Positions 3,746 to 61,554 of a DNA stretch of 64,000 nt are shown piece by piece. Source of the stretch: Squalus acanthias (Eukaryota); assembly GCA_030390025.1 (NCBI GenBank), contig CM059432.1:7192001-7256000 (forward strand), written 5' to 3'. The notes below the pieces were generated by a model. That model was not told the DNA's origin and made no database searches. It saw only the letters and a program-made list of their open reading frames with translations. Each line of letters opens with the position of its first letter. Within the stretch, counting starts at the first letter, position 1. The position numbers were made by a program, and so were the translations under genes.

Positions 3746-4974
3746 TCATGACCTCAGGACCTCAAAACGTCACCGGATGTCTCAAAGCGCTTTACAGCCA
3801 ATGAAGTACTTTTGGAGTGTAGTCACTGTTGTAATGTGGGAAACGCGGCAGCCAATTTGCCCACAGCAAGCTCCCACAAACAGCAATGTGATAATGAGCA
3901 GATAATCTGTTTTATTGATGTTGATTGAGGGATAAATATTGGCCCAGGACACCAGGGATAACTCCCCTGCTCTTCTGCGAAATAGTGCCGCGGGGTCTTT
4001 TACGTCCACCTGAGAGAGCAGACGGGGCCTCGGTTTAACCTCTCATCGTACGTGCTGCACTGGAGAGTCAGCCTAGATTTTTGTGTATAGTGTCTTCAAC
4101 GTAGTAAAACGTCCCAAGGCGCTTCACAGGAGCGATTATCAAACAAAATTTGACACCCACCCACATAAGGAGATATTGGGGCAGGTGACCAAAAGCTTGG
4201 TTGTAGAGGTATGTTTTAAGGAGCGTCTTCAAGGAGGAGAGAGAGGCGGAGAGGCTTAGGGAGGGAATTCCAGAGCTGAGGGCCTAGGCAGCTGAAGGCA
4301 CGGCCGCCAGTGGTGGAGCGATTAAAATCAGGGATGCTCAAAAGGACAACTTTACCAAATAAGGAAAGCCGAACTGTGCTGGTTTCTATAATGGGTATTT
4401 GTAGCAATTCAGGTAAAGTGTACTTTTTAAAATAGTTTATTTTATCAATTCTGAATATGTTCTTCCTTATAGTTAATGTTATTATTCACATATGTAATGT
4501 AAGTTAGATAAAATGAGCATAATTCATTAGTATGCCCTTCATTTGTAGGAAACAAATATATTTTTGAGGCCTGGTTGCTGAGATGTAGAGTGAAATCTAT
4601 ATTATAATTTAATTGCCGTATGCATATTGGGTCTTGTTATTCAAAAATGATAAAGATAGCTCATTTGTTTTAGAGTGCGGAAAACGGTAAATGTTCTTCC
4701 CAGTGCACACAGATCGCAAAAGCCCTGTTTAAAAGTCGTTTGCTCAGTTGCATTTCATTTTATCAGATCACACATCATCAAAATCTTTAATATCTGATAA
4801 ATACCTGACCTTTTCTCACAGCATGATTATACGAAGAGGATCTGAAGTTAAAATATGAATAGAAAAACTTTACGCGCTTCCTCACGTTTAAATTGTCCAT
4901 TCTCACAACTTTATCAAACGGTAGAAAATAAGGGTGTAATGTGGAGGTTCTACACCTAAACCTTTTCTGATTGG

Positions 4975-6005
4975 CAAGCTGTAACGAGTGGTGTGCCACA
5001 GGGATCAGTGCTGGGGCCTCAACTTTTTACAATTTATATAAATGACTTGGATGAAGGGACCGAAGGTATGGTTGCTAAATTTGCTGATGACACAAAGATA
5101 GGTAGGAAAGTAAATTGTGAAGAGGACATAAGGAGGCTACAAAGGGATATAGATAGGTTAAGTGAGTGGGCAAAGATCTGGCAGATGGAGTATAATGTGG
5201 GAAAATGTGAAGTTGTCCATTTTGGCAGGAAGAATAAAAAAGAAGCATATTATCTAAATGGTGAGAGATTGCAGAGCTCTGAGATGCAGAGGGATCTGGG
5301 TGTCCTAGTGCATGAATCACAAAAGGTTACTATGCAGGTACAGCAAGTAATTAGGAAAGCTAATAGAATGTTATCGTTTATTGCAAGGGGAATTGAATAC
5401 AAAAGTAGGGAGGTTATGCTTCAGTTATACAGGGCATTGGTGAGACCACATCTGGAGTACTGTGTACAGTATTGGTCTCCTTATTTAAGGAAGGATGTAA
5501 ATGCGTTGGAAGCAGTTCAGAGAAGGTTTACTAGACTAATACCTGGAATGGGCGGGTTGTCTTATGAGGAAAGGTTGGACAGGCTAGGCTTGTATCTGCT
5601 GGAGTTTAGAAGAATAAGAGGTGACTTGATTGAAAGATATAAGATCCTGAGGGGTCTGGACAGGGTGGATGTGGAGAGGATGTTTCCTCTTGTGGGAGAA
5701 TCTAGAACTAGGGCTCACTGTTTAAAAATAAGGGGTCGCCCATTTAAGACAGAGATGAGGAGAAATTTTTTTCTCAGAGGGTCGTGAGTCTTTGGAACTC
5801 TCTTCCTCAGAGGGCGGTGGAAGCAGAGTCTTTGAATATTTTTAAGGCAGAGGTAGATAGATTCTTGATAAGCAAGGGGGTGAAAGGTTATCGGGGGTAG
5901 GCGGGAATGTGGAGTAATCAGATCAGCCATGATCTTATTGAATGGCGGAGCAGGCTCGAAGGGCCGAGTGGCCAACTCCTGCTCCGAATTCGTATGTTCG
6001 TATGA
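4975..6005 (+). mobile_element. CR1 LINE 3' fragment (ORF2 RT C-terminal half)
   Basis: ORF 4993-5787 has PQGSVLGP, KFADDTK and LVRPHLEYCVQ motifs. CR1 3' hairpin and ttcgtatg tail. Confidence 0.92.
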
Positions 6006-6236
6006 ATATTGGGTCAAGTTTTGTTCAACACCCATAAAAATAATTTTCAGCAACATATGTTATGAGGTGAAAGTGAAACAGGGCACAGAAAGAAAGCGTC
6101 TTGCTCAGTTCAAAATAGGTGGGGATTTTTTTTTATATTGGTATTTATATTTTTTTTACAGCAGAAAATGATGTAAGGAAGATTGTCTTTCCGCTAAAGT
6201 GCCTTGTGAGAGACAGCTTGGCATCTGTGTATATAC

Positions 6237-6671
6237 AAACATACGAATTAGGAGCAGGAGTAGGCCACTCGTCCCCTCGAGCCTGCTCCGCCATTCAATA
6301 AGATCATGGCTGATCTGATTACTCCACATTCCTGCCTACCCCCGATAACCTTTCACCCCCCTTGTTTATCAAGAATCTATCTACCTCTGCCTTAAAAATA
6401 TTCAAAGGCTCTGCTTCCACCGCCCTCTGAGGAAGAGAGTTCCAAAGACTCGCGACCCTTTGTGAGAAAAAATGTCTCCTCATTTCTGTCTTAAATGGGC
6501 GACCCCTTATATTTAAACAGTGACCCCTAGTTCTAGATTCTCCCACAAGAGGAAACATCCTCTCCACATCCACCCTGTCAAGGCCCCTCAGGATCTTATA
6601 TGTTTCAATCAAGTCACCTCTTACTCTTCTAAACTCCACCGGATACAAGCCTAGCCTGTCCAACCTTTCCT
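6237..6671 (-). mobile_element. CR1 LINE 3' fragment
   Basis: RRVRGDLIETYKILRG...RHFFSQRV. Near-identical inverted copy of 5568-6003. Confidence 0.9.
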
Positions 6672-7356
6672 GCGTAATTGCAATTGCGTGAGGACACCCA
6701 CACATTGTTTTTTCTTTTGAAGATGGCACGTCATAAACCGATTTTACTGGGTAGCACTTTCGTAATAGGCAGATTGTCGGTTTTCTTTTAATGGGGCCAA
6801 ATGTTCCCTAGTGGCGATCGCATTGGTGTTTTTTTATAGTACGGGCTGTTCCTGACTGCCTCGGCCATTGCCTCTCACTTGCAGGATTTGCCAACAGAAC
6901 AATGACACATCTTTAATAAAAAAAAATGACGGTTGCCAAGTAAACCCTGGACCTTTCAAAATTGAATTAGCTTTGGCAACATACAGCACAATATGATGAT
7001 AAATGTATGTCTGGGAGGGAGTGACTAATGGAGTTATGAAGGAATCGATTCTGGGTCACCTTCTGTATTCATAAGCCACAAGAAGTTTGTCCTTCTACTG
7101 ATAATATACCTTTTTTTGCCGAGGACAGCAAGTCACGTTACCACGTTCCAAGAAGAAGGGAGAATCATTCCTAGGAACAGGAGTAGGCCATTTAGCCCCT
7201 CAAACCTGATCCGCTATTCAATTAGATCACGGCTGAACTGTATCTTAACTCCATCTACCCGCCTTGGTTCCGTATCCCTTAATATCCCTTGCCTAACAAA
7301 AATCTCTCAATCCCAAAACTTTGAATTGACCCCCCAGCCTCATAATATCCTTTAGG

Positions 7357-7548
7357 AGTGATGTGGAGATGCCGGTGTTGGACGGGGGAGGACAAATGTG
7401 AGAAGTCGCACAACACCAGGTTATAGTCCAACAGTTTTATTTGATATGATCTCTGCACTTCACCTGACGAAGGAGCAGCGCTCCGAAAGCTTGTGATTTC
7501 AAATAAAACTGTTGGACTATAACCTGGTGTTGTGCGACTTCTCACATT
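7357..7548. mobile_element. Palindromic PLE-type insertion, hammerhead family A, inside a CR1 fragment
   Basis: TSD tatcctttagg at 7346-7356 and 7549-7559. Inverted arms about 7394-7443 and 7499-7549. Hammerhead motif lies in the loop. Confidence 0.8.
7460..7496 (+). ncRNA. Minimal type I hammerhead ribozyme motif (family A)
   Basis: tcac CTGACGA a ggagc agc gctcc GAAA gc TT gtga: stem I tcac/gtga, stem II ggagc/gctcc, core boxes intact. Confidence 0.75.
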
Positions 7549-10067
7549 TATCCTTTAGGGGGAGAGAGTCCCAGATTTCCACCACTCTTTGTGTGAAGAA
7601 GTGCCTCCTGACATCGCCCCTGAACAGCCTAGCTCAAATTTTAAGGTTATGCCCCCTTGTTCTGGACTCCCCCAATAATTTCTCGCTATCAACCCTATCA
7701 ACTCCTTTAAATATCTTAAACACCTCAATTAGATCAGACCTTAATCTTTTATACTCGGTCAAAGTGATGGGGACAAACTAAGCGCGTGAGCTGAGGAACG
7801 AGAGGTGGATTTTAATTTTAAATGTAAGGTAATGTGCATTGGAAATTTGCAAGAGGTTTTAAGAAACAAAGGAATAGAAATCTTGGAATAAATTATATTA
7901 AAATAAGAAAAAAAGATAATTGGGGGAGAAGAGAAGAAAAAAGGGAGGACGAGTGTAGCAGAAGTGAAGTGTTTAACATTTTTTTATTTGTATAAAAAGA
8001 ATTGATGTTTTGTTTCAGGTTAATATTACAGTAATAAATCTATTGCTGGAATCTGCGTAAGTATCACTGTAATATTCAGGTTATTTCAGTGTCAGTGTGT
8101 GCCCAGGAAGATGGAGCTTTCCAGAGTTGCTGGTGGTTCCATTGTGAAGAAGGAGTCACAGAGTCAAACTGGTTTTCCTGGGAAGAAAGACATTTGCGAC
8201 GAGGGGACATGGATGATCATGGAATGATATAGCGCAGAAGGAGGCCACTCGGCCCATCGTGCCTGTGTCGGCTCTCTGAAAGAACTATCCAGTTAATCCC
8301 AATCCCCTGCTCTTTTCCCCCATAGCCCTGCAAATTTTTCCCCTTCAACTATTTTTCCGATTCCCTTTTGAAAGTTACTATTGAATCTGCTTCCACCGCC
8401 CTTTCAGGCAGCGCGTTCCAGATCACAACAACTCGCTACGTAAATAAAGTTCTCATCATCTCTGGTTCTCTGGCCAGTTACCTTAAATCTGTGTCCCCTC
8501 TGGTTACTGATCCTCCTGCCACTGGATGGTGTTGACGTAGCCAGGTTATTTATCTTTAAACTTATAATCACGGAACTATGATAGGATTTCCAACCCTCCA
8601 CGGTTACCCTGGAGACTCCAGGACACTGCCGCGAACAACCCAGGAGAAAAATCACAGGGCAATACATTTTTTTTTTAAAAACAATCTTTGAACACTTTGG
8701 TTATTAGTTCTAAAACTATCTGAGATGGGAGAAAAGGCTGTTTGACTGACAGTCATGAATCATTCAATCGGGTAATGACGAGTCTATTCGGTTTCCAATT
8801 GGTTTGGGAAGGCAGGGTGCCGGCAGGATGGACATGTTGGGCGATCAAACACTCCCATCAAACAGCACGGTTCTGGTTCACGACCATTGACGGCTGTCCC
8901 TTCTGTTGCCTGGGCCCCAAGCTCTGGAATTCCCTCCCTAAACCTCTCTGCCTCGCTACCTCTCTCTCCTCCTTTAAGACGCTCCTTCAAACCTACCTCT
9001 TTGACCAAGCTTTTGGTCATCTGCCCTAATATCTCCTTCTGTGGCTCGTTGTCAAATTTTGTTTGATAGTCGCTCCCTGTGAAGCGCCTTGGGACGTTTT
9101 ACTACATTAAAGGTGCTATATAAATACAAGTTGTTGTTGTTAATCTGTCTGGACTATCCTAATCATAACAATAGAATGTAACTGGTAACAGCCAAATAAT
9201 AATAATGGGGTTAAATACCCTGGAATCGTCACTTGATTACCTTCACAGTTAGAAGGGGAATTTGTACTGACTTTATTTTCCTGGATGTTTTACCTCTGGT
9301 CATTCAACCTGTTCAAATAAATTGGGCAGATTGCATCCAGAATTGCACTTGGTTTGTTTGAAGGAGCAGATTTCATTTGTCTGCTCTTATTCCAAGCTTT
9401 GTTATATTTTTAATATTGTGCGTATCACCTCTTCATATATTTGAAATCACAGAATAGAATCATAGAGATTTACGGCACAGAAGGAGGCCATTTGGCCCAT
9501 CCTGTCCGTGCCGGCAGACAAAGAGCTATCCAGCCTAATCCCACTTTCCAGCTCTTGGTCCGTAGCCCTGTAGGTTACGGCACTTCAAGTGCATATCCAA
9601 GTACTTTTTAAATGTGATGAGGGTTCCTGCCTCTACCACCCTTTCAGGCAGTGAGTTCCAGACCCCCATCACCCTCTGGGTGAAAAAATTTCTCCTCAAC
9701 TCCCCTCTAATCCTTCTACCAATTACTTTAAATCTGTGCCCCCTGGTTATTGACTGCTCTGCTAAGGGAATTAGTTCCTTCCCATCCACTCTATCTAGTT
9801 TGTCCAAATGAGTTTTTATGTGTGTTTGTGCAGGGGCATGAAGTAAAAAGAGAAAGGAAAGAAAGACTTGCATTGCTATAGCGGCTTTCACGACCTCCGG
9901 ATGTCCCAAAGCTCTTTCCAACCAATGAAGTACTTTTGAAGTGTAGTCAATGTAGGAAGGAGCAGGATTGATTTCTTATCTGATTATAGGAGTGATACTG
10001 TTCTAACTATATACTTTGTAAAAATACAGCGTTGTGTTGAGTCAGTGTTTCGTGTCTTTCTGTTCAG

Positions 10068-13133: not shown

Positions 13134-13370
13134 GCAAGTATAGAAGATTCTGTGTTTCATCAAACACTTTCCAGAACACACCACCTCTTCACACAAAGAA
13201 ACACACCTGTAGTCAAGTACTGCTACCAAGGTTAAATTCTTCCCCCCCCCCCCCCCCCCCACCGCCCCAATGATGTAAACTTTTAAACCTGACTTAAACC
13301 GTCACTTTTTTCCACATTTACTGACTGAGCAAAGCAACAAATAAATACAAGATAGTCACTGATAAATCCG

Positions 13371-13723
13371 AGAAGTCGCACAACACCAGGTTATAGTCCA
13401 ACAGCTTTATTTGAAATCACAAGCTTTCGGAGCGCTGCTCCTTCGTCAGGTGAAGTGAAGAGATGCATATAGGCACAGCATATATAGTCAGAGAACACTG
13501 CCAGATGATTACAGTTCTAAGGGCAGTTAGAAAGATTAACTGTAATCATCTGGCAGTGTTCTCTGACTATATATGCTGTGCCGATATGCATCTCTTCACT
13601 TCACCTGACGAAGGAGCAGCCGCTCCGAAAGCTTGTGATTTCAAATAAAGCTGTTGGACTATAACCTGGTGTTGTGCGACTTCTCACATTTGTCCACCCC
13701 AGTCCAACACCGGCATCTCCGCA
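13371..13723. mobile_element. Palindromic PLE-type insertion, family A, with two opposed hammerhead motifs (13417-13453 minus, 13601-13638 plus)
   Basis: TSD tcactgataaatccg at 13356-13370 and 13724-13738. Inverted arms of about 146 bp (13371-13516 and 13538-13685). Splits a CR1 3' fragment. Confidence 0.85.
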
Positions 13724-15205
13724 TCACTGATAAATCCGGAAGGGATTTCAGGAGAAACTTCTTTCCCCAGAGAGTGGTGAGAATGTGGAACTCGCTACCG
13801 CAGGGAGTGGGTGAGGCGAGTTGCATGGATGCATTTATGGGGACGCTGGATTAAGTACATGAGGGAGAAAGGAATAGATGGATATGTTGATAGGGTGAGA
13901 TGAAATAGGGTGGGAGGAGGCTCGTGTGGAGCATAAACACCGGCATGGACCAGTTGGGCCGAACAGCCTGTTTCTGCGCTGTAAATTCTATGTAATACTC
14001 TCCCACGTTTATTCAATAAAAGCAGTATTTCTCGGTTTGCCTAGGATTCCGTCACACAAGCAATTCTCAGTTTGATCTTTTCTTTGAATCTGTAGTGCCT
14101 GAGGTTTTCAATTACTTAATCTGATTCCACTATTTGTAAGGTAGTTTGGCACTATTAGCTAAAGTTACTTATTTTACAAGGACTATACATCAAGTATCAC
14201 TTTCTATATATATTTTTAAGATTATTAAAAGCTACATGTTGATTGGCAAACAAACCAGAGACGAAACATGGAATCTTCCTTCTCCGTATGGCTCAGTAAC
14301 ACACCACCAGTAAATATTTTACATGCGTGATGGCAGCATTCCAAATCCTTGACAATTGCAATGATATTTTAGTCTTAGAAACATAGGAACAGGAGTAGGC
14401 CATTCAGCCCCTCGAGCCTGTTCCGCCATTCAATTAGATCATGGCTGATCTGTATCTTAACTCCATTCACCCACCTTGGCTCCATATCCATTAATACCCT
14501 TATCTAAAAAAAAAATCTATCTCAGTTTTGAAATTTTCAATTGACCTCCAGCCTCAACAGCTTTTTGAGGGAAAGAGTTCCAGACTTCCACGACCCTTTG
14601 TGTGAAGAAGTGCTTCCTGACTTCTTGCGATACTGTGCTTTGCAGGAAGAAATCATTTCCTGAAAAAAAGTTTTTAAACTAAGCTTAATTAGTCCATGGA
14701 ATATTACATCTCTAATAAATATAGCTTTACATAAAATGTACAGCACAGAAACAGGCCATTCGGCCCAACTGGTCCATGCCGGTGTTTATGCTCCACACGA
14801 GCCTCCTCCCACCGCTCTTCATCTGACCCCATCAGCATAACCTTCGAATTCAATAAATGGGAGGAAAAATGCATAGACGTTTATTTGTTGCTTTCCTCCC
14901 CAAAAGGCTCAGTAGTTTTATCCGGCGAGTTGCTGGTTTGTACAGACCAGGAGAATCCCACACTTGATTCCTGGTCTCTGTGAACTTCGCAGAACTTAAC
15001 TGGGGCACATCAATCAACCTCAGCGCCACCGTGTCAGGAAGAGGGAAATCAGCTTGGATTTCTACTCCTGTTAGTTCGAGGATCGTGCTTGGTAGCAAGC
15101 CTTTGTGAACTTGGGATGAGAATAGAAACATGATACTCCTTCTCTCCCCTTCCTCCTCTACCTCACGGACTCAACACTGTTAAAGCTCACACATGAATAA
15201 ACAAA

Positions 15206-15412
15206 TGTGAGAAGTCGCACAAGACCAGGTTATAGTCCAACAGTTTTATTTGAAATCACAAGCTTTCAGAGCGCTGCTCCTTCGCCAGGTGAAGTGACGA
15301 AGGAGCAGCGCTCCGAAAGCTTGTGATTTCAAATAAAACTGTTGGACTATAACCTGGTCTTATGCGACTTCTCACATTTGTCCATCCCAGTCCAACACCG
15401 GCATCTCCACAT
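15206..15412. mobile_element. Palindromic PLE-type insertion, family A
   Basis: Flanking direct repeat catgaataaacaaa at 15192-15205 and 15413-15426, partly overlapping the element ends. Inverted arms of about 90 bp. Both hammerhead cores are damaged. Confidence 0.8.
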
Positions 15413-16829
15413 CATGAATAAACAAAACAAACAAACAGCTTTCACGACCTCAGGACGTCCCAAAGCGCTTTACAATCCAATGAAGTACTTTTGAAGTGTA
15501 GCCACTGTTGTAATGTAAGAAACACAGCAGCCAATTTGCGCACAGAAAGGTCCCACAAACAGCAAATGAGACAATGACCAGATCATCTGTTTTTATTGCT
15601 GTTGGTTGAGGGATAAATATTGGCCAGGACACTGGGAAGATCTCGCCTGCTTTTCTTCAGAATAGTGCCATGGGTTGTTTTATATCCACCTGGGAAGCCA
15701 GACAGGGTCTCGGTTCAACGTCTCACCCGAAAGACGGCACCTCTGACAGTGCAGCACTCGCTCAGTACTGCACCGGGAGTGTCAGCCTAGATTTTGTGCT
15801 CAAGTCTTTGGAGTGGGACTTGAACCCACAACCTTCTGACTCTGAGGCAAGAGTGCTGCCCATTGAGCCACGGCTATGGCCAGCTGGTCAAGGTACTGGA
15901 GGGTAACTGGTGTTTGAGGAACCATACCCCAGGAGGGGAGGCAAGTAAACAATGGAACACTTACTCGTGCTGATGTTTAAAGAATATGGCATTAATCTTT
16001 CCTATAGTTATCCTGAAAACCTTTTGTTTTTGTGACTCATTTTTGCATTTCATATTTGAAATCCTGACTTACTGTGTGCTAGTTACATTTGGGCTCAGCC
16101 ATTACTTAGGATGCCCTATTGAGGCAATGATATTACACAGGGGTCACCGTAAATTGATATCTGAAACTGTAGAAAGGTGTGCTGAGTTTATTAAGCGACT
16201 GCAATTTATAAAGCATTAACAACCAGAAGACAATAATGCAGGTCTGAAGTGTCCACTCACAGGCTGATGTAACCTAGAGCCCTGAGCCTGTGTGATACTG
16301 GAGGAGGAAAAACTCACTTTATCCATTTGACTCAACCTCACATGTGTTTTGAATACTAAACTTATGTTTTTTATTTGTTTTAATGGTGCAATTCTGTTGA
16401 TTTAGTTTAAAGATTAGCCTGCGACCATAATAAGTAATGGATATATTTGGGAAGAGAAATCGTTTCTCATAACGATGCTGCTCAGAAATACTATCCAAGG
16501 GAAATTATCATACTTGAATGTTGAGCTAATGTAGTTGTCATAGTATATAGAAATTAACAATTGTTGCTGCGGTCGTGTTTGTACTGTTATTTAGAAAGGC
16601 TCCCCCCCCCCCCCCTTGCAGGAGTACAGCTGCCTTCCCTTAGCGCTTCTGAGACTTAGCTTTATATATTTTAATTTTTGTCACCGTTTGTATAGCTCTG
16701 CCTTTCACGTCATTTGCCGTTAAAGAGATGAATATCCCTATCAGTCTGTTCCAAACACATTACATCATTTCAGCACCACGTTGCTGCCTGGGTTAAGTAG
16801 AAGTAAGAATCTTGTCTTTATTGCTCTAG

Positions 16830-46249: not shown

Positions 46250-47186
46250 CCAGTGGGTTCATTGTTCTGCTTCTCTTCTGAGATGGAGGTGAGAAGTGCT
46301 TTTGCATATTCTGGATGACTGACAGTTCTTTTGTCACAGCCAACTGCCATGCGTTCTCTGGAGTTTTAACAAACCAGTTTTTCACATATCTGCACAGGGT
46401 GATCCCATCACAGGGAAAATACCCTCAGAAAAATCCCATAAATTCCACAAAATATTCTTGACTGAGTCCATTCTTCAAACAGAGAATTTGCGATCTCTTC
46501 ACCCCTCCGTGTCCTAACTCGCACCAAGTCCCGCTCACTCATCACCCCTGTGCTCGCTGATCTACATTGGCCCCCGGTCCAGTAATGCCTCGATTTTTTT
46601 TAATTCCCATCCTTGTTTTCAAATCCGTCCATGGCCACACCCCCTCCCTAGCTCTGTAACCTCCTCCAGCCCTACAACCCCTCCGAGATCTCTGCGCTCC
46701 TTCAGTTTTGGCCTCTTGAGCACCCTCGATTTCCTTCACTCTATCATTGGTGGCCGTGCCTTCAGCTGCCGAGGCCCTAAGCTCTGGAATTCCCTCCCTA
46801 AACCTCTCTGCCTCTCTCTCCTCCTTATAAATCGTTCCTTAAAACCTACCTCTTTGACCAAGCGTTTGGTCACCCGTCCTAATATCTCCTGATGTGGCTC
46901 GGTGTCAAATTTTGTTTGGTAACGCTCCTGTGAAGCACCTTGGGACGTTTTACTGCATTAAAGGCGCTATATGAATGTTGTTGATGATAGTAAGAAAACG
47001 GAAAGTACTGTTAATGCACAGCATGTATGCCAGCATCTGAAACTGAAAGATGAGGTAACATTTCGGGCAGGATTCGCACTGAAACAAGAGTCCCACATGA
47101 AACATTTTTTAAAAATGTATTTGTTCACGGGATGTGGGCGTCGCTGGCAAGGCTGGCATTTATTGCCCATCCCTATATTGCCCTTG

Positions 47187-47376
47187 TCTTGGCTGTGCTC
47201 TTAGTGTGTCTTTGATGTAGGGAAATATTTGAATAGATTTTGTCTGTGTTTAAATTGTGAATTCTGGGAGATTCTCTCACTGCTAACTTACCTGAGGAAG
47301 GAGCGACAGCTCCGAAAGCTTGTAAAATTAAATAAATCTGTTGGACTATAACCTGGTGTTGTGCGACTTCTCATTT
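47187..47376 (+). mobile_element. Divergent family A PLE-type insertion with a hammerhead motif at 47288-47325
   Basis: TSD ttgcccttg at 47178-47186 and 47377-47385. Motif ttac CTGAGGA a ggagc gaca gctcc GAAA gc TT gtaa, followed by the shared family A tail. Confidence 0.78.
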
Positions 47377-50290
47377 TTGCCCTTGAGAAGGTGGTGGTGA
47401 GCCGCCTTCTTGAACCGCTGCAGTCCGTGTGGTGAAGGTGCTCCCACAGTGCTGACTTTGTCGTAGTGGTTTGGTACAACGGCGTGTCTCACTAGGCCAT
47501 TTCAGAGGGCAGGGAAGAGTCAACCACGTTGAGTTACATATAGGCCAGACCGGGTAAGGGCAGCAGATTTCCTTCCCTAAAGGACATTAGTGAACCAGTT
47601 GTTTTTTTTTTACAACAATCTGATAGTTTCATGGTCACCGTTACTAGCTTTTTAATTACTAGATTTATTTAATTAACTGAATTTAAATTCCCCTCAACTC
47701 ACTTCTCCGGATTATTCGTCCGGGCCTCTGGATTACTGGTCCAGTAACATAACCACTATATACTCCCGTACCCGCTGTAACATAAACCTGTATCTTCTCT
47801 TTCAGAAGCTCTTGTGTGAATTTGTTTCTTTTAGATTCTGATTTCTAGCACTTGGCCGTTTTTTTTTTCCCCTTACAGATTGACAGAAGACAAATAAATA
47901 CATGGATTTTTGTTCCGAATTGAATTTAACTGATGGAAAATCCTGCTGACCTCCACACCTGCATTCCTGATGTGGGATTTAGTGGCATGCTTTGGCAGCA
48001 CGGATTTGTACAACGTACTCTGCAGCGAGGCAGTAATTAGATGTGGCACTTTCTGTAAATACAACGTGTGCGAACAGCTCGGATTTTATGCTGGTTCCCG
48101 CTGGTACTTTATTTTTTTTCCAGTCTATCGGCTATATATTTTTTTTACACGGGAACTAGTAAGGAGTTCACCCTGCTGCGTGTGCCCTCTTCATGTTTCC
48201 TACATATTTGGCATGTGGCGCATGGCGCTCCTCATGTTTCATATGTTGGACCACACAACAATGTGGAAAGACGTTTTGTGTAGAAATCTGTCTTGCTGCA
48301 TTTCAGGTCTGGTTCCAAACACCAAAAAGAGATTGATCGTAAACCGCAACCAACGTTTAAACAATTATATTACAGCATCGGCTGTGGCTCAGTGGGCAGT
48401 GCACTCTCTCGCCTCTTGAGTCAGAATGGTTCTGGGTTCAAAGTCCCACTCCGGAGACTTGAGCACAAAAAAAAATCTAGGCTGACACACTCCCAGCGCA
48501 GCACCGAGGGAGCGCTGCACTGTCAGAGGTGCCGTCTTTCGGATGAGACGTTAAAAACCGAGGCCCCGTCTGCCCCTCTCGGGTGGACGTAAAAGATCCC
48601 GTGCCCACTATTTCGAAGAAGAGCAGGGGAAGTTCTCCCCGGTGTCCTGGGGCCAATATTTATTCCTCAATCAACATCACTAAAAAAAAACAGATTATCT
48701 GGTCATTATCACATTGCTGTTTGTGGGAGCTTGCTGTGCGCAAAATTGGCTGCCGCGTTTCCCTACATTACGACAGCGACTACACTTTATCAGGGCAATA
48801 TGTTCAGTCAGTTTTTTTTAAATATTTTTCTACGAAGCTGCTGGCGACCCACTCTTGCAAAGTGCATAACAATACTTAATGAATCACGATGATTGACCGT
48901 TTGAATTACATTTTAATGGCCAAGTATTTATCACCAAGACTGGTCGACTTCCTGTGGTGTTGCTCACCGGTAGACCAGGATCTGGAGTGCAGTTTCTGAT
49001 GTTTATCGCACTTTCCCTGCAGTCTAACTACGACAGCTGTTCACCCGTCTCTTGTAGTATAACAAATTTACTGAATCATGGGGCCAGAATCTGCTGCCAA
49101 AAATAACGGTGAGTTCGACGGCGCTCGCCGCTGTTTGTGTACCAATCGTCCAGCAAACTTGCGGCGAGGAAGAGGTACCCGGTGAGTTGCGAATCCGCTG
49201 TTGGCCTCGTGGAAACGAAAGCTCACCCTGACCTCCCCGTGAGTTTCAAGAAATTGCTGCCTTTGCACAATAATTGCCCATTAAACTCGCCGCAGAAAGT
49301 TAGGGTTTGTTACTCAACGGTGTAAATACCTTTTTAATGTTATGTTCCTGCAATGCCACTCAAACTCTTTGGCCCAGAAAGGGAACAGTTGAAACTGTGG
49401 GGTCTCATTCCTGCAGGTAGTAAATCGTTCTTAGAGATATATAACATTTTTAATGTTTTAATATTTTTCTTCATTCTCATTCCTGTCTCTTCTTTTCTCT
49501 CTCTCTCTTAATCCAATCTTTCTTTCTCTCTCTTTCTGTACCTGATTTGGCTCTAATTCACCCTATTTCTTTCTCCGTTGTTCCTCTGTTTCTTTCTCAA
49601 TATTAAATCTCGTTGGTTAAGGAGATAGACTGTTGGTCCTGCCATTCACCAAGGTCCCAGATACCCCGCTGCCCTTGCCGCAAAAATTTTTTCGAGCTGA
49701 AGGGTGAGGGAAAAGTCTAACTAACGGGGCGGGCCGCGAGAATGGGTTTCCCGCAGGCCCTGCTGACTTTAACCGCGGGGCCAGGTTTGCATCTGAAGCT
49801 TCTGTTTCCCGCCCGCAGCCAGCCAGATGGAGAGGTTGGCTGGCTCCGGGCGAGTAGGCCTGTGGCACTAGGCTGCACAGAGGAGGGAGGGAGGGATCGG
49901 GTGGGGGCTGGTGCCGGCCTCCAGAGGACCAGGGGGGAGGGGGGAGGCAAGAGGTCGTGGCCGTCGAGCGACCAGGAGGGGGGGAGGCAAGAGGTCGAGG
50001 TCGGTCACCAGAGGTTCAGGCCAGCCTCAGGATCATCAGTGGGGGGTGGGGGGTCCAGGAAGGCGATTAGAAGCCTCGTGAGGGGGTCTCTGATCGCAGG
50101 GGTGGGCTAGGCAGGGACCCTGGATCCAGGAGGTAGGTGTAAAGGCACTTACCTCCTGGATGCAGCAGTCCCCGCCTTGCTGTAACTGCAGGGTTTTACG
50201 AAGTGTGTGAAACCCGACCAGATGCAGTTAAAAACAAAATGGTGGTTAAAGAAGCGGCTTCCCGCCTCATCGTAATATTTAAATTGTGTC

Positions 50291-50580
50291 CCGCCTCCTG
50301 GGAGCGGATTGACTGGCTGCCCTGTCCCGCCCCACCTCCTGGGAGCGGATTGGCTGGCCGCTCTGTCCCGCCCCCCCGCCCCACCCCATGGGAGCGGATT
50401 GGCTGGCCGCCCTGTCCCGCCCCACCCCCTGGGAGCAGATTGGCTCGCCGCCCTGTCCCACTCCCCCCACCCCACCTCCTGGGAGCGGATTGGCTGGCCG
50501 CCCTGTCCCGCCCCACCCCCTGGGAGCGGATTGGCTGGCTGCCCTGCCCTGTCCCACCCCCCCCCCCCCCCCCCCCCCAT
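50291..50580. repeat. GC-rich minisatellite, about 6 units of 40-50 bp, ending in a poly-C run
   Basis: Unit core tgggagcggattggctggccgccctgtcccgcccca recurs at about 50300, 50340, 50389, 50430, 50480 and 50521. Confidence 0.9.
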
Positions 50581-52924: not shown

Positions 52925-53885
52925 CTTCGACTCTTCCCTTCCCTTCATCGACTTCTCTATCTCCATTTGTGGGGATAGGCTAACATCCACTATAAGCTCA
53001 CTGACTCCCACAGCTATCTGGACTACACTTCCTCTCACCCCGCTTCCTGTCAGGACTCTATTCCATTCTCCTAGTTACTCCGTCACCGCCGCATCTGTTC
53101 TGATGCTGCCACCTTCCGTACCAGTGCTTCCGACATGTCTTCATTTTTCCTCAACCGAGGATTCCCCTCTACCGTGGTTGACACGGCCCTTGACTGTGTC
53201 CGTTCCTTTTCCCGTACTTCTGCTCTCACCCCTTCCCCTCCCTCCCAGAACCACGATAGGGTTTCCCCTTGTCCTCGCCTTCCAACCCACCAGCCTCCAC
53301 ATTCAACGGATCATCCTCCGCCATTTCCACCACCCCTCCCTCCCCCCCCCCCACCGTTCAGCATTCTGAAGGGGCCATTCCCTCCACAACACCCTGGTCC
53401 ACTCCTCTATCACCCCAACACCCACTCCCCTTCTCACAGCACCTTCCTGTGCAAGTGCAGGAGATGCAAGACCTACCCCTTTGCCTGCTCCATTCCCACC
53501 GTCCACGGCCGCAGGTGAAACAGCAATTTACTTATACTTCTTTCAATTTAGTATACTGTATTCCCTGCTCATGATGTGGTCTCCTCTACACTGCAGGGAC
53601 CAAATGCAGATTGGGTGACCGCTTTGCGGAACACCTCCATTCAGTCTCCAAGCATGACCCCGACCTTCACGTCCCCTGTCATTTTAATTCTCCGGACCAC
53701 TCCCACTCTGTCCTCGGCCTCTTACACTGTTCCAATGAAGCTCAACGTAAGCTCGAGGAACAGCACCTCATCTTTCGATTAGGCACCTTTACAGCCTTCT
53801 GGACTCAACATCGAGTTCAACAATTTCAGACCATAATCTCTGTCCCTATTTTTTCGGACAGCAGTTGTTGGCAATGATTCTACTA
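52925..53885 (+). mobile_element. Degenerate Penelope-like element ORF (RT C-terminal/thumb region plus GIY-YIG endonuclease), family B
   Basis: Manual translation gives LPFIDFSISI...HYKLTDSHSYLDYTSSHPASCQDSIPFS, then NLVYCIPCS*CGLLY...LGDRFAEHL...HFNSPDHS...RKLEEQHLIFRLGT, with stops and frameshifts. Confidence 0.88.
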
Positions 53886-59833: not shown

Positions 59834-60326
59834 TGTGAGAAGTCGCCCAACACCAGGTTATAGTCCAACAGCTTTATTTGAAATCACAAGCTTTCGGAGC
59901 GCTGCTCCTTCGTCAGGTGAAGTGAAGAGATGCATATAGGCACAGCATGTATAGTCAGAGAACACTGCCAGATGATTACAGTTAATCTTTCCAACTGCCC
60001 TTTATCACACCTCGGCAGAGAGATAATCACGGCAATTGATGTAATGTTTTCCTGACTGACCTGTTTGGACACCATCCACGCCTTTGATTGCCGTGATTAT
60101 CTCTCTGCCGAGGTGTGATAAAGGGCAGTTAGAAAGATTAACTGTAATCATCTGGCAGTGTTCTCTGACTATATATGCTGTGCCTATATGCATCTCTTCA
60201 CTTCACCTGACGAAGGAGCAGCGCTCGAAAGCTTGTGATTTCAAATAAAGCTGTCGGACTATAACCTGGTGTTGTGTGACTTCTCACATTTGTCCACCCC
60301 AGTCCAACACCGGCATCTCCACATCA
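59834..60326. mobile_element. Largest palindromic family A insertion (hammerhead motifs 59884-59920 minus, 60203-60238 plus)
   Basis: TSD ttccaatacYag at 59822-59833 and 60327-60338. Inverted arms of about 203 bp (59834-60036 and 60087-60288) with a 50-bp spacer. Confidence 0.85.
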
Positions 60327-61554
60327 TTCCAATACTAGGAGCACCATTGGAATCCCCAAACGAATTCCCTTCCTGACCACAAAGCTCGCTACAAGGGAAA
60401 GAGCAGCAGAAAGCAAGGCTGCTGTAGGAGAATCTTGCAATGTACATTCAGGCCAAAGCTGCAAGAAAACACAAGCCACTAATGAAAAGGCAGAGAAAGC
60501 AATAAATTAAAAAAAAACAATGGCTGAATTCTCAACCAACTTAAATGTGCTACATACCTTTAAAAAGCCAACTTCAAAACTAGCCAGACCATCTCGACAG
60601 TATTGAGCTTGTTTCATACGGGCAGGCTGAACCATGAGTAAAGGGGCAGCCCAAAAGCTGTTAAATCGAGGATGGGGACTCATTTACATTGGAATCAGAG
60701 CTTTTCATGAGGCTTGCTGGGCTTGGCAGCACATCTTTCAAAAACTTAGAAATATGTTGCACTTTGAACAGTCCTAGCAATTGTAGTGCTAATTCATCCA
60801 AAGAAAACGGTGAACTGGAAAGGGCCTTGGCTGGAGAAACAACAACAACTTGCATTTATATAGCGCCTTTAATGCAGTAAAACGTCCCGAGGCGCCGCAC
60901 AGGAGCGATTATCAAACCGAATTTGGCAATGATCCACATAAGGAGATATCAGGACAGATGACCAAAAGCTTAGTCAAAGAGGTAGGTTTTAAGGAGCGTC
61001 TTAAAAAAAAGGAGAGAGAGGCGGAGAGGTTTAGGGAGGGAATTCCAGAGCTCAGGGCCCAGGTCACTGAAGGCACGGCCGCCAGTGGTGCAACGACTGA
61101 AAATTGGGGATGCTCAAGAGGTCAGAATTGGAGATGCGCAGAGGTCTCAAAGGGTTGTAGGGCTGGCGGAGGTTACAGAGATAGGGAGGGCTTTGTAAAC
61201 CAGGATGAGAATTTTAAATTGAACATGTTGCTGGACCGGGAGTCAACGTAGGTCAGCGTGCACAGGGGTGATGGGGGAACGGGACTTGATGTGAGCTAGA
61301 TCAGTGGTCAGAATAAGAGAAAGATAGCCAAGAACAAGAGGGAAATACTAAAAATGCTCCACACAAATAAGAATTTTTAGACTATGCCCCCTACTCCTAG
61401 AAACAAGACTGAGATAGATAGATTTTGGGCGCTGGGATCGGGCGGGAAAATGGAGTTGAGGTAAAAGATCAGCCATGATCTCATTAAATGGCGGCACAGG
61501 CTCGAGGGGCTGAATGGCCTCCTCCTGTTCCTATGTTCCTTGAATATACTTAAT

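What the first reader, a model, noticed from the sequence alone, without database searches (positions are those of the whole stretch)
47288..47325. Compensatory covariation supports a real hammerhead fold
Compared with the other family A copies, this divergent copy changes stem I from tcac/gtga to ttac/gtaa, a double compensatory change. It also changes the free N7 base (CUGACGA to CUGAGGA) and loop II (AGC to GACA), while keeping every catalytic core base and the ggagc/gctcc stem. The upstream sequence differs from the other copies. Changes confined to permissive positions are what selection on ribozyme structure in the source elements would predict.
Basis: partly seen in the sequence, partly recalled or inferred. 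Interest (0 to 1): 0.75.

Follow-up and report, generated by a model that had tools for sequence, protein, structure and literature searches.

The report
Penelope hammerhead ribozyme, fold-preserving variants
This is one of tens of thousands of copies of a small hammerhead motif at the end of a Penelope-type jumping gene, a known arrangement, and the variants that spread nearly all keep its fold, so the predicted self-cutting RNA is likely needed by the copying elements, although this short stub is likely inert.

Summary
The bases are as described, but only ONE stem I pair changes (C-G to U-A), and the copy is not an individually divergent one: it is a ~190-bp 5'-truncated stub (9-bp target duplication) of a subfamily with 11,971 genomic copies. 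The motif is the minimal type-I hammerhead in the pLTR of a Penelope-like retroelement (intact 891-aa RT + GIY-YIG ORF found), described by Cervera and De la Pena 2014. One pair proves little; the genome-wide test supports selection on the fold in source elements. That pair reads C-G 37,435, U-A 11,971, U.G 1,730 (a real subfamily), C.A 306. Eight of ten inherited stem changes keep pairing. CpG changes at G8, G12 and C11.1 stay at 396-514 copies while the free N7 change reaches 1,538. A second, distant Penelope family has fully re-written, paired stems. Against: the outer stem I pair is broken in two lineages, a U4C core lineage spread, the active dimer is not the lowest-energy fold, and cleavage is untested. 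The scan noted this hammerhead family and U4C before on other DNA of this genome. Known kind; low interest.

The parts
47178..47186 (+). Left copy of 9-bp target-site duplication (ttgcccttg), inside an older interspersed repeat
   Evidence: Sequence; 31 of 49 left-flank hits elsewhere abut a right-flank hit, 8 of the 10 printed with a 9-base overlap
47187..47376 (+). 5'-truncated Penelope-like pLTR stub, about 190 bp, no ORF; both ends share a few bases with the target, so boundaries are uncertain by 3-6 bases
   Evidence: 180 of 199 bases identical to the pLTR of the full-length element L091 over 47184-47382
47187..47287 (+). Subfamily-specific pLTR sequence upstream of the ribozyme (explains why the upstream sequence differs from the other copies)
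   Evidence: Matches L091; the last 100 nt differ 2-33% between subfamily copies compared
47288..47291 (+). Stem I 5' strand (ttac); 47289 is the covarying position
47292..47299 (+). Core CUGAGGA (C3-A9, N7 = G at 47296) plus the extra unpaired A before stem II
   Evidence: extra nucleotide is a listed min-HHR trait in PMC4209133
47300..47313 (+). Stem II GGAGC/GCUCC with loop GACA (47305-47308)
   Evidence: Forms in the monomer MFE; 100% of cells paired over 27 haplotypes
47314..47321 (+). G12-A13-A14-A15.1, palindromic AGCU (47317-47320) that can form helix III only between two copies, and H17 = U (47321); predicted cut after 47321
   Evidence: Sequence; H17 is U at 94 and C at 14 of 107 sites, never G; family B has ACGU
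47322..47325 (+). Stem I 3' strand (gtaa); 47324 is the covarying position
47326..47376 (+). Conserved downstream pLTR (AATAAA at 47331-47336, 24-mer at 47340-47363) ending at the common 3' end of tail-less copies; the 30-40 nt tail is missing here
   Evidence: 24-mer has 98,558 exact genomic matches; 121 of 281 sampled copies carry the tail
47377..47385 (+). Right copy of the target-site duplication

Best explanation
The motif is a minimal type-I hammerhead in the terminal repeat (pLTR) of a very abundant Penelope-like retroelement, and its fold and core are likely under purifying selection in the replicating source elements, while this 190-bp stub is likely a passive copy. Shown: element identity, subfamily structure, the pair-state counts and the CpG asymmetry. 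Inferred mechanism: in transcripts of full-length tandem elements the AGCU palindromes of two ribozymes pair to supply helix III, stem I closes across the two copies, and the RNA is cut after U17, 91 nt upstream of the ATG, probably slowly and with help from the element's protein as in Anolis Poseidon. Variants that keep pairing can found new subfamilies (C-G, U.G and U-A states of one pair all did); variants that break inner pairs or most core bases appear only at the level of decay after insertion.
For: Full-length elements with the same ttac/gtaa ribozyme in both pLTRs, 3,046 bp apart, around an 891-aa ORF with RVT_1 (E 2.3e-8), YIDD, CX4CXXC linker and VVYLI...YIG. Pair I3 genome-wide: C-G 37,435, U-A 11,971, U.G 1,730, C.A 306; the listed U.G copies are mostly one haplotype (AGC loop, H17 = C) and sit near the split between the C-G and U-A groups in an ORF-based tree. 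In 162 copies at 107 sites chosen by the downstream 24-mer, 8 of 10 inherited stem changes keep pairing (binomial p 0.003 if 1 in 3 keep it by chance, 0.055 if 1 in 2); 1 of 11 core positions has a recurrent allele against 12 of 12 upstream and 4 of 14 spacer positions; N7 shows all four bases. Same haplotype, CpG transitions: C7U 1,538 versus G8A 396, C11.1U 488, G12A 514. Family B, downstream of a ~30% identical PLE ORF in 3 of 3 such loci, has the same core with all four stem I pairs and the palindrome centre exchanged.
Against: Outer stem I pair broken in two lineages (C.A 9, G.A 5 of 107 sites); U4C lineage at 10 of 107 sites. Independent events are few: within family A only 2 of 9 pairs change on both sides, each probably once; the tree's key split is weak (71/89). 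Sequence downstream of the ribozyme is as conserved as the ribozyme (0-12.5% difference over 48 nt), so conservation alone is not specific. The double-hammerhead dimer scores -18.7 against -28.2 kcal/mol for an alternative duplex; monomer z = -1.72, 10 of 200 shuffles as stable. In the window context stem I forms with probability 0.01-0.26. In Anolis the ribozyme is not needed for insertion in vitro and no RNA ends were found at the cut site (PMC11167929).
Confidence: 0.8

Rival explanations
1. The fold is kept for a non-catalytic job (protein binding, transcript 5' end or template-switch signal); cleavage is weak or dispensable.
For: U4C and 3-bp stem I lineages spread; min-HHRs cleave poorly in vitro (PMC4209133); core mutants insert normally in vitro (PMC11167929); active dimer is not the lowest-energy fold; a TATA-like word lies 33-35 nt upstream of stem I in 82 of 114 gtga-type copies (patterns picked after looking), so the 5' strand may also serve transcription start.
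Against: The tolerated changes follow the rules of hammerhead catalysis, not just pairing: N7 free, H17 U or C but never G, G8 and G12 held at the decay floor; U4C is a natural variant that lowers activity in vitro yet supports viroid infectivity (PMC3088659, passage).
Confidence: 0.3
2. The covariation is plain linkage between subfamily markers with no selection on RNA structure; the stems merely drift.
For: All subfamily markers are linked; the flagged change is two transitions in one lineage; p is only 0.055 under a transitions-only null; the 3' strand always reads T-R-A (TGA 114, TAA 48 of 162), a stop in the ORF frame and a splice-donor-like word, which could constrain it for another reason.
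Against: Linkage does not explain why U.G but not C.A founded a subfamily, why five other inherited changes in stems I-II also end as G.U or Watson-Crick pairs, why only C7U exceeds the CpG floor, or why family B has other sequences with the same pairing; loop II length takes all three frames, which speaks against a coding constraint; sliding the pairing register drops pairing from 97.9% to 15-46%.
Confidence: 0.08
3. This particular genomic copy acts as a ribozyme for the host.
For: Its core and both stems are intact.
Against: It is a solo stub with no partner for helix III nearby (nearest family A cores are over 12 kb away), lacks the tail, is predicted to misfold in context, and matches its subfamily, so intactness reflects youth; inserted copies lose G8 and G12 at CpG-decay rates.
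Confidence: 0.03

Closest known systems
Minimal hammerheads (min-HHR) in pLTRs of metazoan Penelope-like elements (Cervera and De la Pena 2014, PMC4209133)
   Same: Type I topology, short helix I (4 bp), extra nucleotide between A9 and 10.1, G10.1-C11.1 pair, palindromic 15.2-16.2, no monomeric helix III, location in both pLTRs, thousands of solo and opposite-strand copies, families with covariation. Its supplement lists a lamprey PLE ribozyme with the same UCAC/GUGA stem I.
   Different: Stem II is 5 bp here (7-8 bp in Schistosoma); palindrome is AGCU; copy number is ten times higher (over 51,000 exact matches against about 4,000-9,000 in coelacanth and frog). No shark entry in the two supplement files searched.
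Anolis carolinensis Poseidon (PAc) ribozyme and tail (Frangieh et al. 2024, PMC11167929)
   Same: pLTR ribozyme followed by an AC-rich region with two copy end points that define an optional tail; tandem ORF-pLTR structure.
   Different: In PAc the ORF starts at stem II; here the first ATG is 125 nt from stem I and loop II length varies freely. This ORF has a CX2-5CXXC linker that Poseidon lacks.
Neptune-clade Penelope-like elements (as defined in Craig et al. 2021, PMC8557442)
   Same: C-terminal GIY-YIG, CX2-5CXXC linker (CHGNLCKTC at 753), DKG motif, partial tandems and inverted 5'-truncated copies.
   Different: Clade not tested by a tree with reference RTs; Nematis also has a linker motif.

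Membership tests
min-HHR of metazoan PLEs | Core C3UGANGA9 ... G12AAA15.1 ... U16.1 H17 | tested here: met
   Window sequence; 10 of 11 core positions without a recurrent allele at 107 sites
min-HHR of metazoan PLEs | Helix I of 4-5 bp and helix II, supported by covariation | tested here: met
   the outer helix I pair is not kept in two sister lineages
min-HHR of metazoan PLEs | [quoted passage not shown] | tested here: met
   A at 107 of 107 sites, G-C at 107 of 107; rows lacking the extra base were filtered out before this count (3 seen)
min-HHR of metazoan PLEs | Palindromic 15.2-16.2, helix III only in a dimer | tested here: met
   AGCU here, ACGU in family B; the dimer can be drawn but is not the lowest-energy duplex
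min-HHR of metazoan PLEs | Located in both pLTRs of an RT + GIY-YIG element | tested here: met
   L091 and L092
min-HHR of metazoan PLEs | Self-cleavage after H17 | not testable with these tools
   No assay; read lays gave no test
Canonical type-I hammerhead (Rfam models; retrozyme type) | 6-bp helix I with tertiary loop contacts, score above Rfam gathering threshold | tested here: not met
   0 Rfam matches in the window; helix I is 4 bp
Neptune clade of PLEs | CX2-5CXXC linker before a C-terminal GIY-YIG | tested here: met
   CHGNLCKTC at 753, VVYLI at 790, YIG at 805
Neptune clade of PLEs | RT groups with Neptune references | not tested
   No reference PLE proteins were fetched

The most novel reading that the evidence does not exclude
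The copy counts are population-level proof that catalysis itself is required for Penelope retrotransposition in vivo: only ribozyme-competent variants found subfamilies (N7 and H17 free, G8 and G12 never inherited, a wobble intermediate frozen as its own subfamily), which would settle the open question whether these ribozymes serve the element or merely ride on it, and would make the subfamily series a natural mutational scan.
Probability: 0.45. Interest if true: 0.5.

Novelty: new member of a known kind. Interest (0 to 1): 0.25.

Why it matters
The element type, the ribozyme and its covariation are in print since 2014, so the finding itself is ordinary. What this genome adds is depth: over 50,000 countable copies separate inherited variants from decay after insertion. 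Craig et al. 2021 call the role of the ribozyme unclear and raise parasitism, and Frangieh et al. 2024 found it dispensable in vitro; the counts here favour selection on the catalytic pattern in replicating elements and name natural variants (U.G intermediate, U4C, 3-bp stem I) for a direct test.

Tried and rejected
Rfam at gathering score: 0 matches; the evalue mode was not run. Bare CTGANGA count in the window is at chance (43 against 40.4), so the core word alone is no evidence. RNA: no RNA holder listed on record; the one raw-read poly(A) run laid 0 reads on the element and 2 on 13 kb of the window, so it is no test; contigs of runs guessed to be RNA cover 29 of 30 bins of the element but cannot show ends, strand or level, and may be DNA. 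No GT..AG joint was among those listed for the element, which leaves an intron open. Host-gene context of the stub could not be established. A longer stem I conserved across subfamilies was looked for by eye and not seen. A coding constraint across the ribozyme was rejected (loop II length mod 3: 51, 76, 35 copies). The tool's shuffle control (0 of 500) ignores relatedness and is not taken as a probability; the 2x2 Fisher test on copy counts counts copies, not events, and is not used. R-scape was not available. Literature searches: hammerhead + Penelope, 45 papers; hammerhead ribozyme + shark + Penelope, 1 paper whose only 'shark' is the name's origin; Penelope-like + hammerhead + covariation, 8 papers; U4C, 1 paper.

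Full report
What is there. Window 47288-47325 (+) reads ttac CTGAGGA A GGAGC GACA GCTCC GAAA GCT T gtaa: the layout of a type-I hammerhead with stem I open, a 5-bp stem II, no monomeric helix III and a palindromic AGCU before H17. The five other family A copies in the window with a whole core have tcac/gtga, CTGACGA and loop AGC (4) or AGCC (1). The stem I change is one pair, C-G to U-A, by two transitions.

What it belongs to. The window is G000:C8:7192001-7256000 of a 3.71-Gb genome; that it is a shark rests on recalled repeats and on earlier scan notes, not on a test. A family pattern has 34,593 exact matches, the downstream 24-mer 98,558, the GACA/GTAA form 3,340. [quoted passage not shown] This is an endonuclease-bearing Penelope-like element, Neptune-like by the linker. 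The ribozyme sits in both pLTRs, 125 nt (stem I) and 91 nt (predicted cut) upstream of the ATG. The window copy matches this pLTR at 180 of 199 bases over 47184-47382, lies between two copies of ttgcccttg, and interrupts an older repeat whose empty site was found at 31 of 49 left-flank hits. So it is a 5'-truncated, tail-less stub, and its different upstream sequence is that of its subfamily.

Test 1, the flagged pair genome-wide. With other positions held to a common pattern, the pair reads C-G 37,435, U-A 11,971, U.G 1,730, C.A 306. The first 100 U.G matches listed are mostly one haplotype (AGC loop, H17 = C), i.e. a subfamily; the C.A matches are spread over many backgrounds at 0.6% of the total, though about half of those listed also carry H17 = C and may be decay products of the H17 = C lineages. 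In a tree of 38 copies built from the last 600 nt of the ORF, the 16 gtaa copies form one group (support 71/89, weak) and the two U.G copies lie in the unresolved part next to the split. This fits C-G, U.G, U-A as one path, direction unknown. It is one event, not thousands.

Test 2, all positions. Copies were collected by the downstream 24-mer, not by the ribozyme: 281 copies in 157 loci plus the window; 242 parsed, 39 not; 176 had element-derived upstream sequence; 13 inversion junctions and 1 indel row were dropped, leaving 162 copies at 107 insertion sites. The filter favours young copies and removed two G8A copies seen. Inherited stem changes: eight keep pairing (I2 G.U at 2 sites, I3 U.G 3 and U-A 35, II2 G.U 4, II3 G.U 24, II4 G.U 7, II5 U.G 3 and U-A 10) and two break it, both at the outer pair I4 (C.A 9, G.A 5). 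Scattered breaks not counted as inherited: II2 A.C 2, II5 C.A 2, and four single sites in I1-I2. Binomial p is 0.003 if one change in three keeps a pair by chance and 0.055 if one in two. One of 11 core positions has a recurrent allele (U4C, 10 sites) against 12 of 12 upstream, 4 of 14 spacer and 5 of 10 positions after the 24-mer; N7 has all four bases; H17 is U (94) or C (14), never G; loop II has over 20 forms of 3-9 nt. Rare changes hit the core (0.0034 per position and site) about as often as the spacer (0.0040).

Test 3, CpG symmetry. In the commonest haplotype two CpGs overlap the core. Decay after insertion should hit both strands alike. C11.1U and G12A are symmetric (488, 514) and G8A is at the same floor (396), but C7U, the free position, reaches 1,538. 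The simplest reading is that N7 = U elements replicate and the other three do not; the excess could stem from few founders. The same numbers show that inserted copies are not protected.

Test 4, a second family. The descriptor scan gave 187 hits in 1,152,656 bases against 0 reversed and 0 in five shuffles; the 18 hits outside family A all belong to family B: agtt CTGAYGA A RGGTC nnn GACCT GAAA CGT T aact. Family B follows a 28-42% identical PLE ORF on the same strand in L134 and L187, and in decayed form in L115: 3 of 3 loci with such an ORF. On 27 haplotypes (25 family A, 2 family B) 97.9% of cells pair and 7 of 9 pairs change on both sides; shifted registers give 15-46%. Within family A alone 2 of 9 pairs do. 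The tool's shuffles ignore kinship.

Against. Besides I4 and U4C: the 48 nt downstream differ only 0-12.5% between subfamilies, so conservation is not special to the ribozyme; the monomer fold is unremarkable (z -1.72); the double hammerhead is 9.5 kcal/mol above an alternative duplex; in the window context stem II forms with probability 0.11-0.49 and stem I 0.01-0.26, against 1.0 and 0.88 for the element's upstream pLTR with tail and 20 nt upstream, though longer upstream context lowers stem I there too. RNA data gave no test.

Mechanism. Shown: element, subfamilies, counts. Inferred from the family's literature: two ribozymes pair through AGCU and cut after U17 to process tandem transcripts, slowly and probably with protein help. 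I put selection on the fold in source elements at 0.8, need for cleavage itself at about 0.45, and function of this stub at 0.03.

Known work. PMC4209133 (parts 1-2 of 4 read: abstract, results, discussion, bioinformatic methods; two supplement files searched by term, file 1 not searchable) describes these minimal hammerheads, their covariation, dimer model and low activity. PMC11167929 (parts 1-2 of 4, main text) shows protein-assisted cleavage, dispensability in vitro and the tail. PMC8557442 (passages) defines the clades and calls the role unclear. PMC3088659 (passages) gives U4C. PMC6155905 (passages). bioRxiv 10.64898/2026.07.22.740005 (passages) reports hammerhead repeats in one cartilaginous fish; its supplements were not seen and may hold this family. 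Hammerhead numbering and the roles of N7 and H17 are partly recalled. My searches found no paper on this family in sharks, which does not show that none exists; repeat libraries were not searchable.

Verdict. Observation confirmed, interpretation right in its conclusion but under-argued; a new member of a known kind. Interest 0.25.

Noticed in passing
window 56159+, 56874-, 33836-, decayed at 46162-; L134, L187, L115: Second Penelope hammerhead family (B) with palindrome ACGU and an A-U or G.U pair at 10.1-11.1; 39 fuzzy copies in 29 loci; tied to a distant PLE ORF.
   Followed up: partly
L096:3700-3737 (-), L166:3692-3729 (+): Subfamily with U4C core together with a compensated stem II pair (C-G to U-A); 10 of 107 sites.
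   Followed up: partly
L101, L120, L134, L160, L161, L197: Subfamilies whose last 400 ORF bases differ by 0.2-2.2% differ by 2-18% in the 100 nt before the ribozyme and carry different loops: module exchange between ORF and pLTR or fast change near the ribozyme. Unexplained.
   Followed up: partly
L091:4990-5135 (-): The tail can pair with the 24-mer (gttggact/agtccaac); in predictions this frees the ribozyme stems, whereas tail-less copies tend to mispair stem II with the downstream sequence. Depends on the upstream length chosen.
   Followed up: partly
window 47323-47325: The stem I 3' strand always ends T-R-A (TGA 114, TAA 48 of 162), an in-frame stop relative to the ORF, with 27 open codons directly before the ATG in L091; the A stays fixed even where its partner has changed.
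   Followed up: partly
window 13370-13726, 15200-15417, 59836-60327, 7359-7553: Family A stubs come as head-to-head inverted pairs, the usual Penelope insertion pattern.
   Followed up: no
window 47255-47260 and equivalents: TATA-like word 33-35 nt upstream of stem I in 82 of 114 gtga-type copies; AT-rich words 34-40 nt upstream in gtaa-type copies.
   Followed up: partly
window 50290-50568: GC-rich tandem array of 41-50 nt units.
   Followed up: no
window 52985-53224: Weak match to the PLE ORF (29% over 80 aa, E 6e-5).
   Followed up: no
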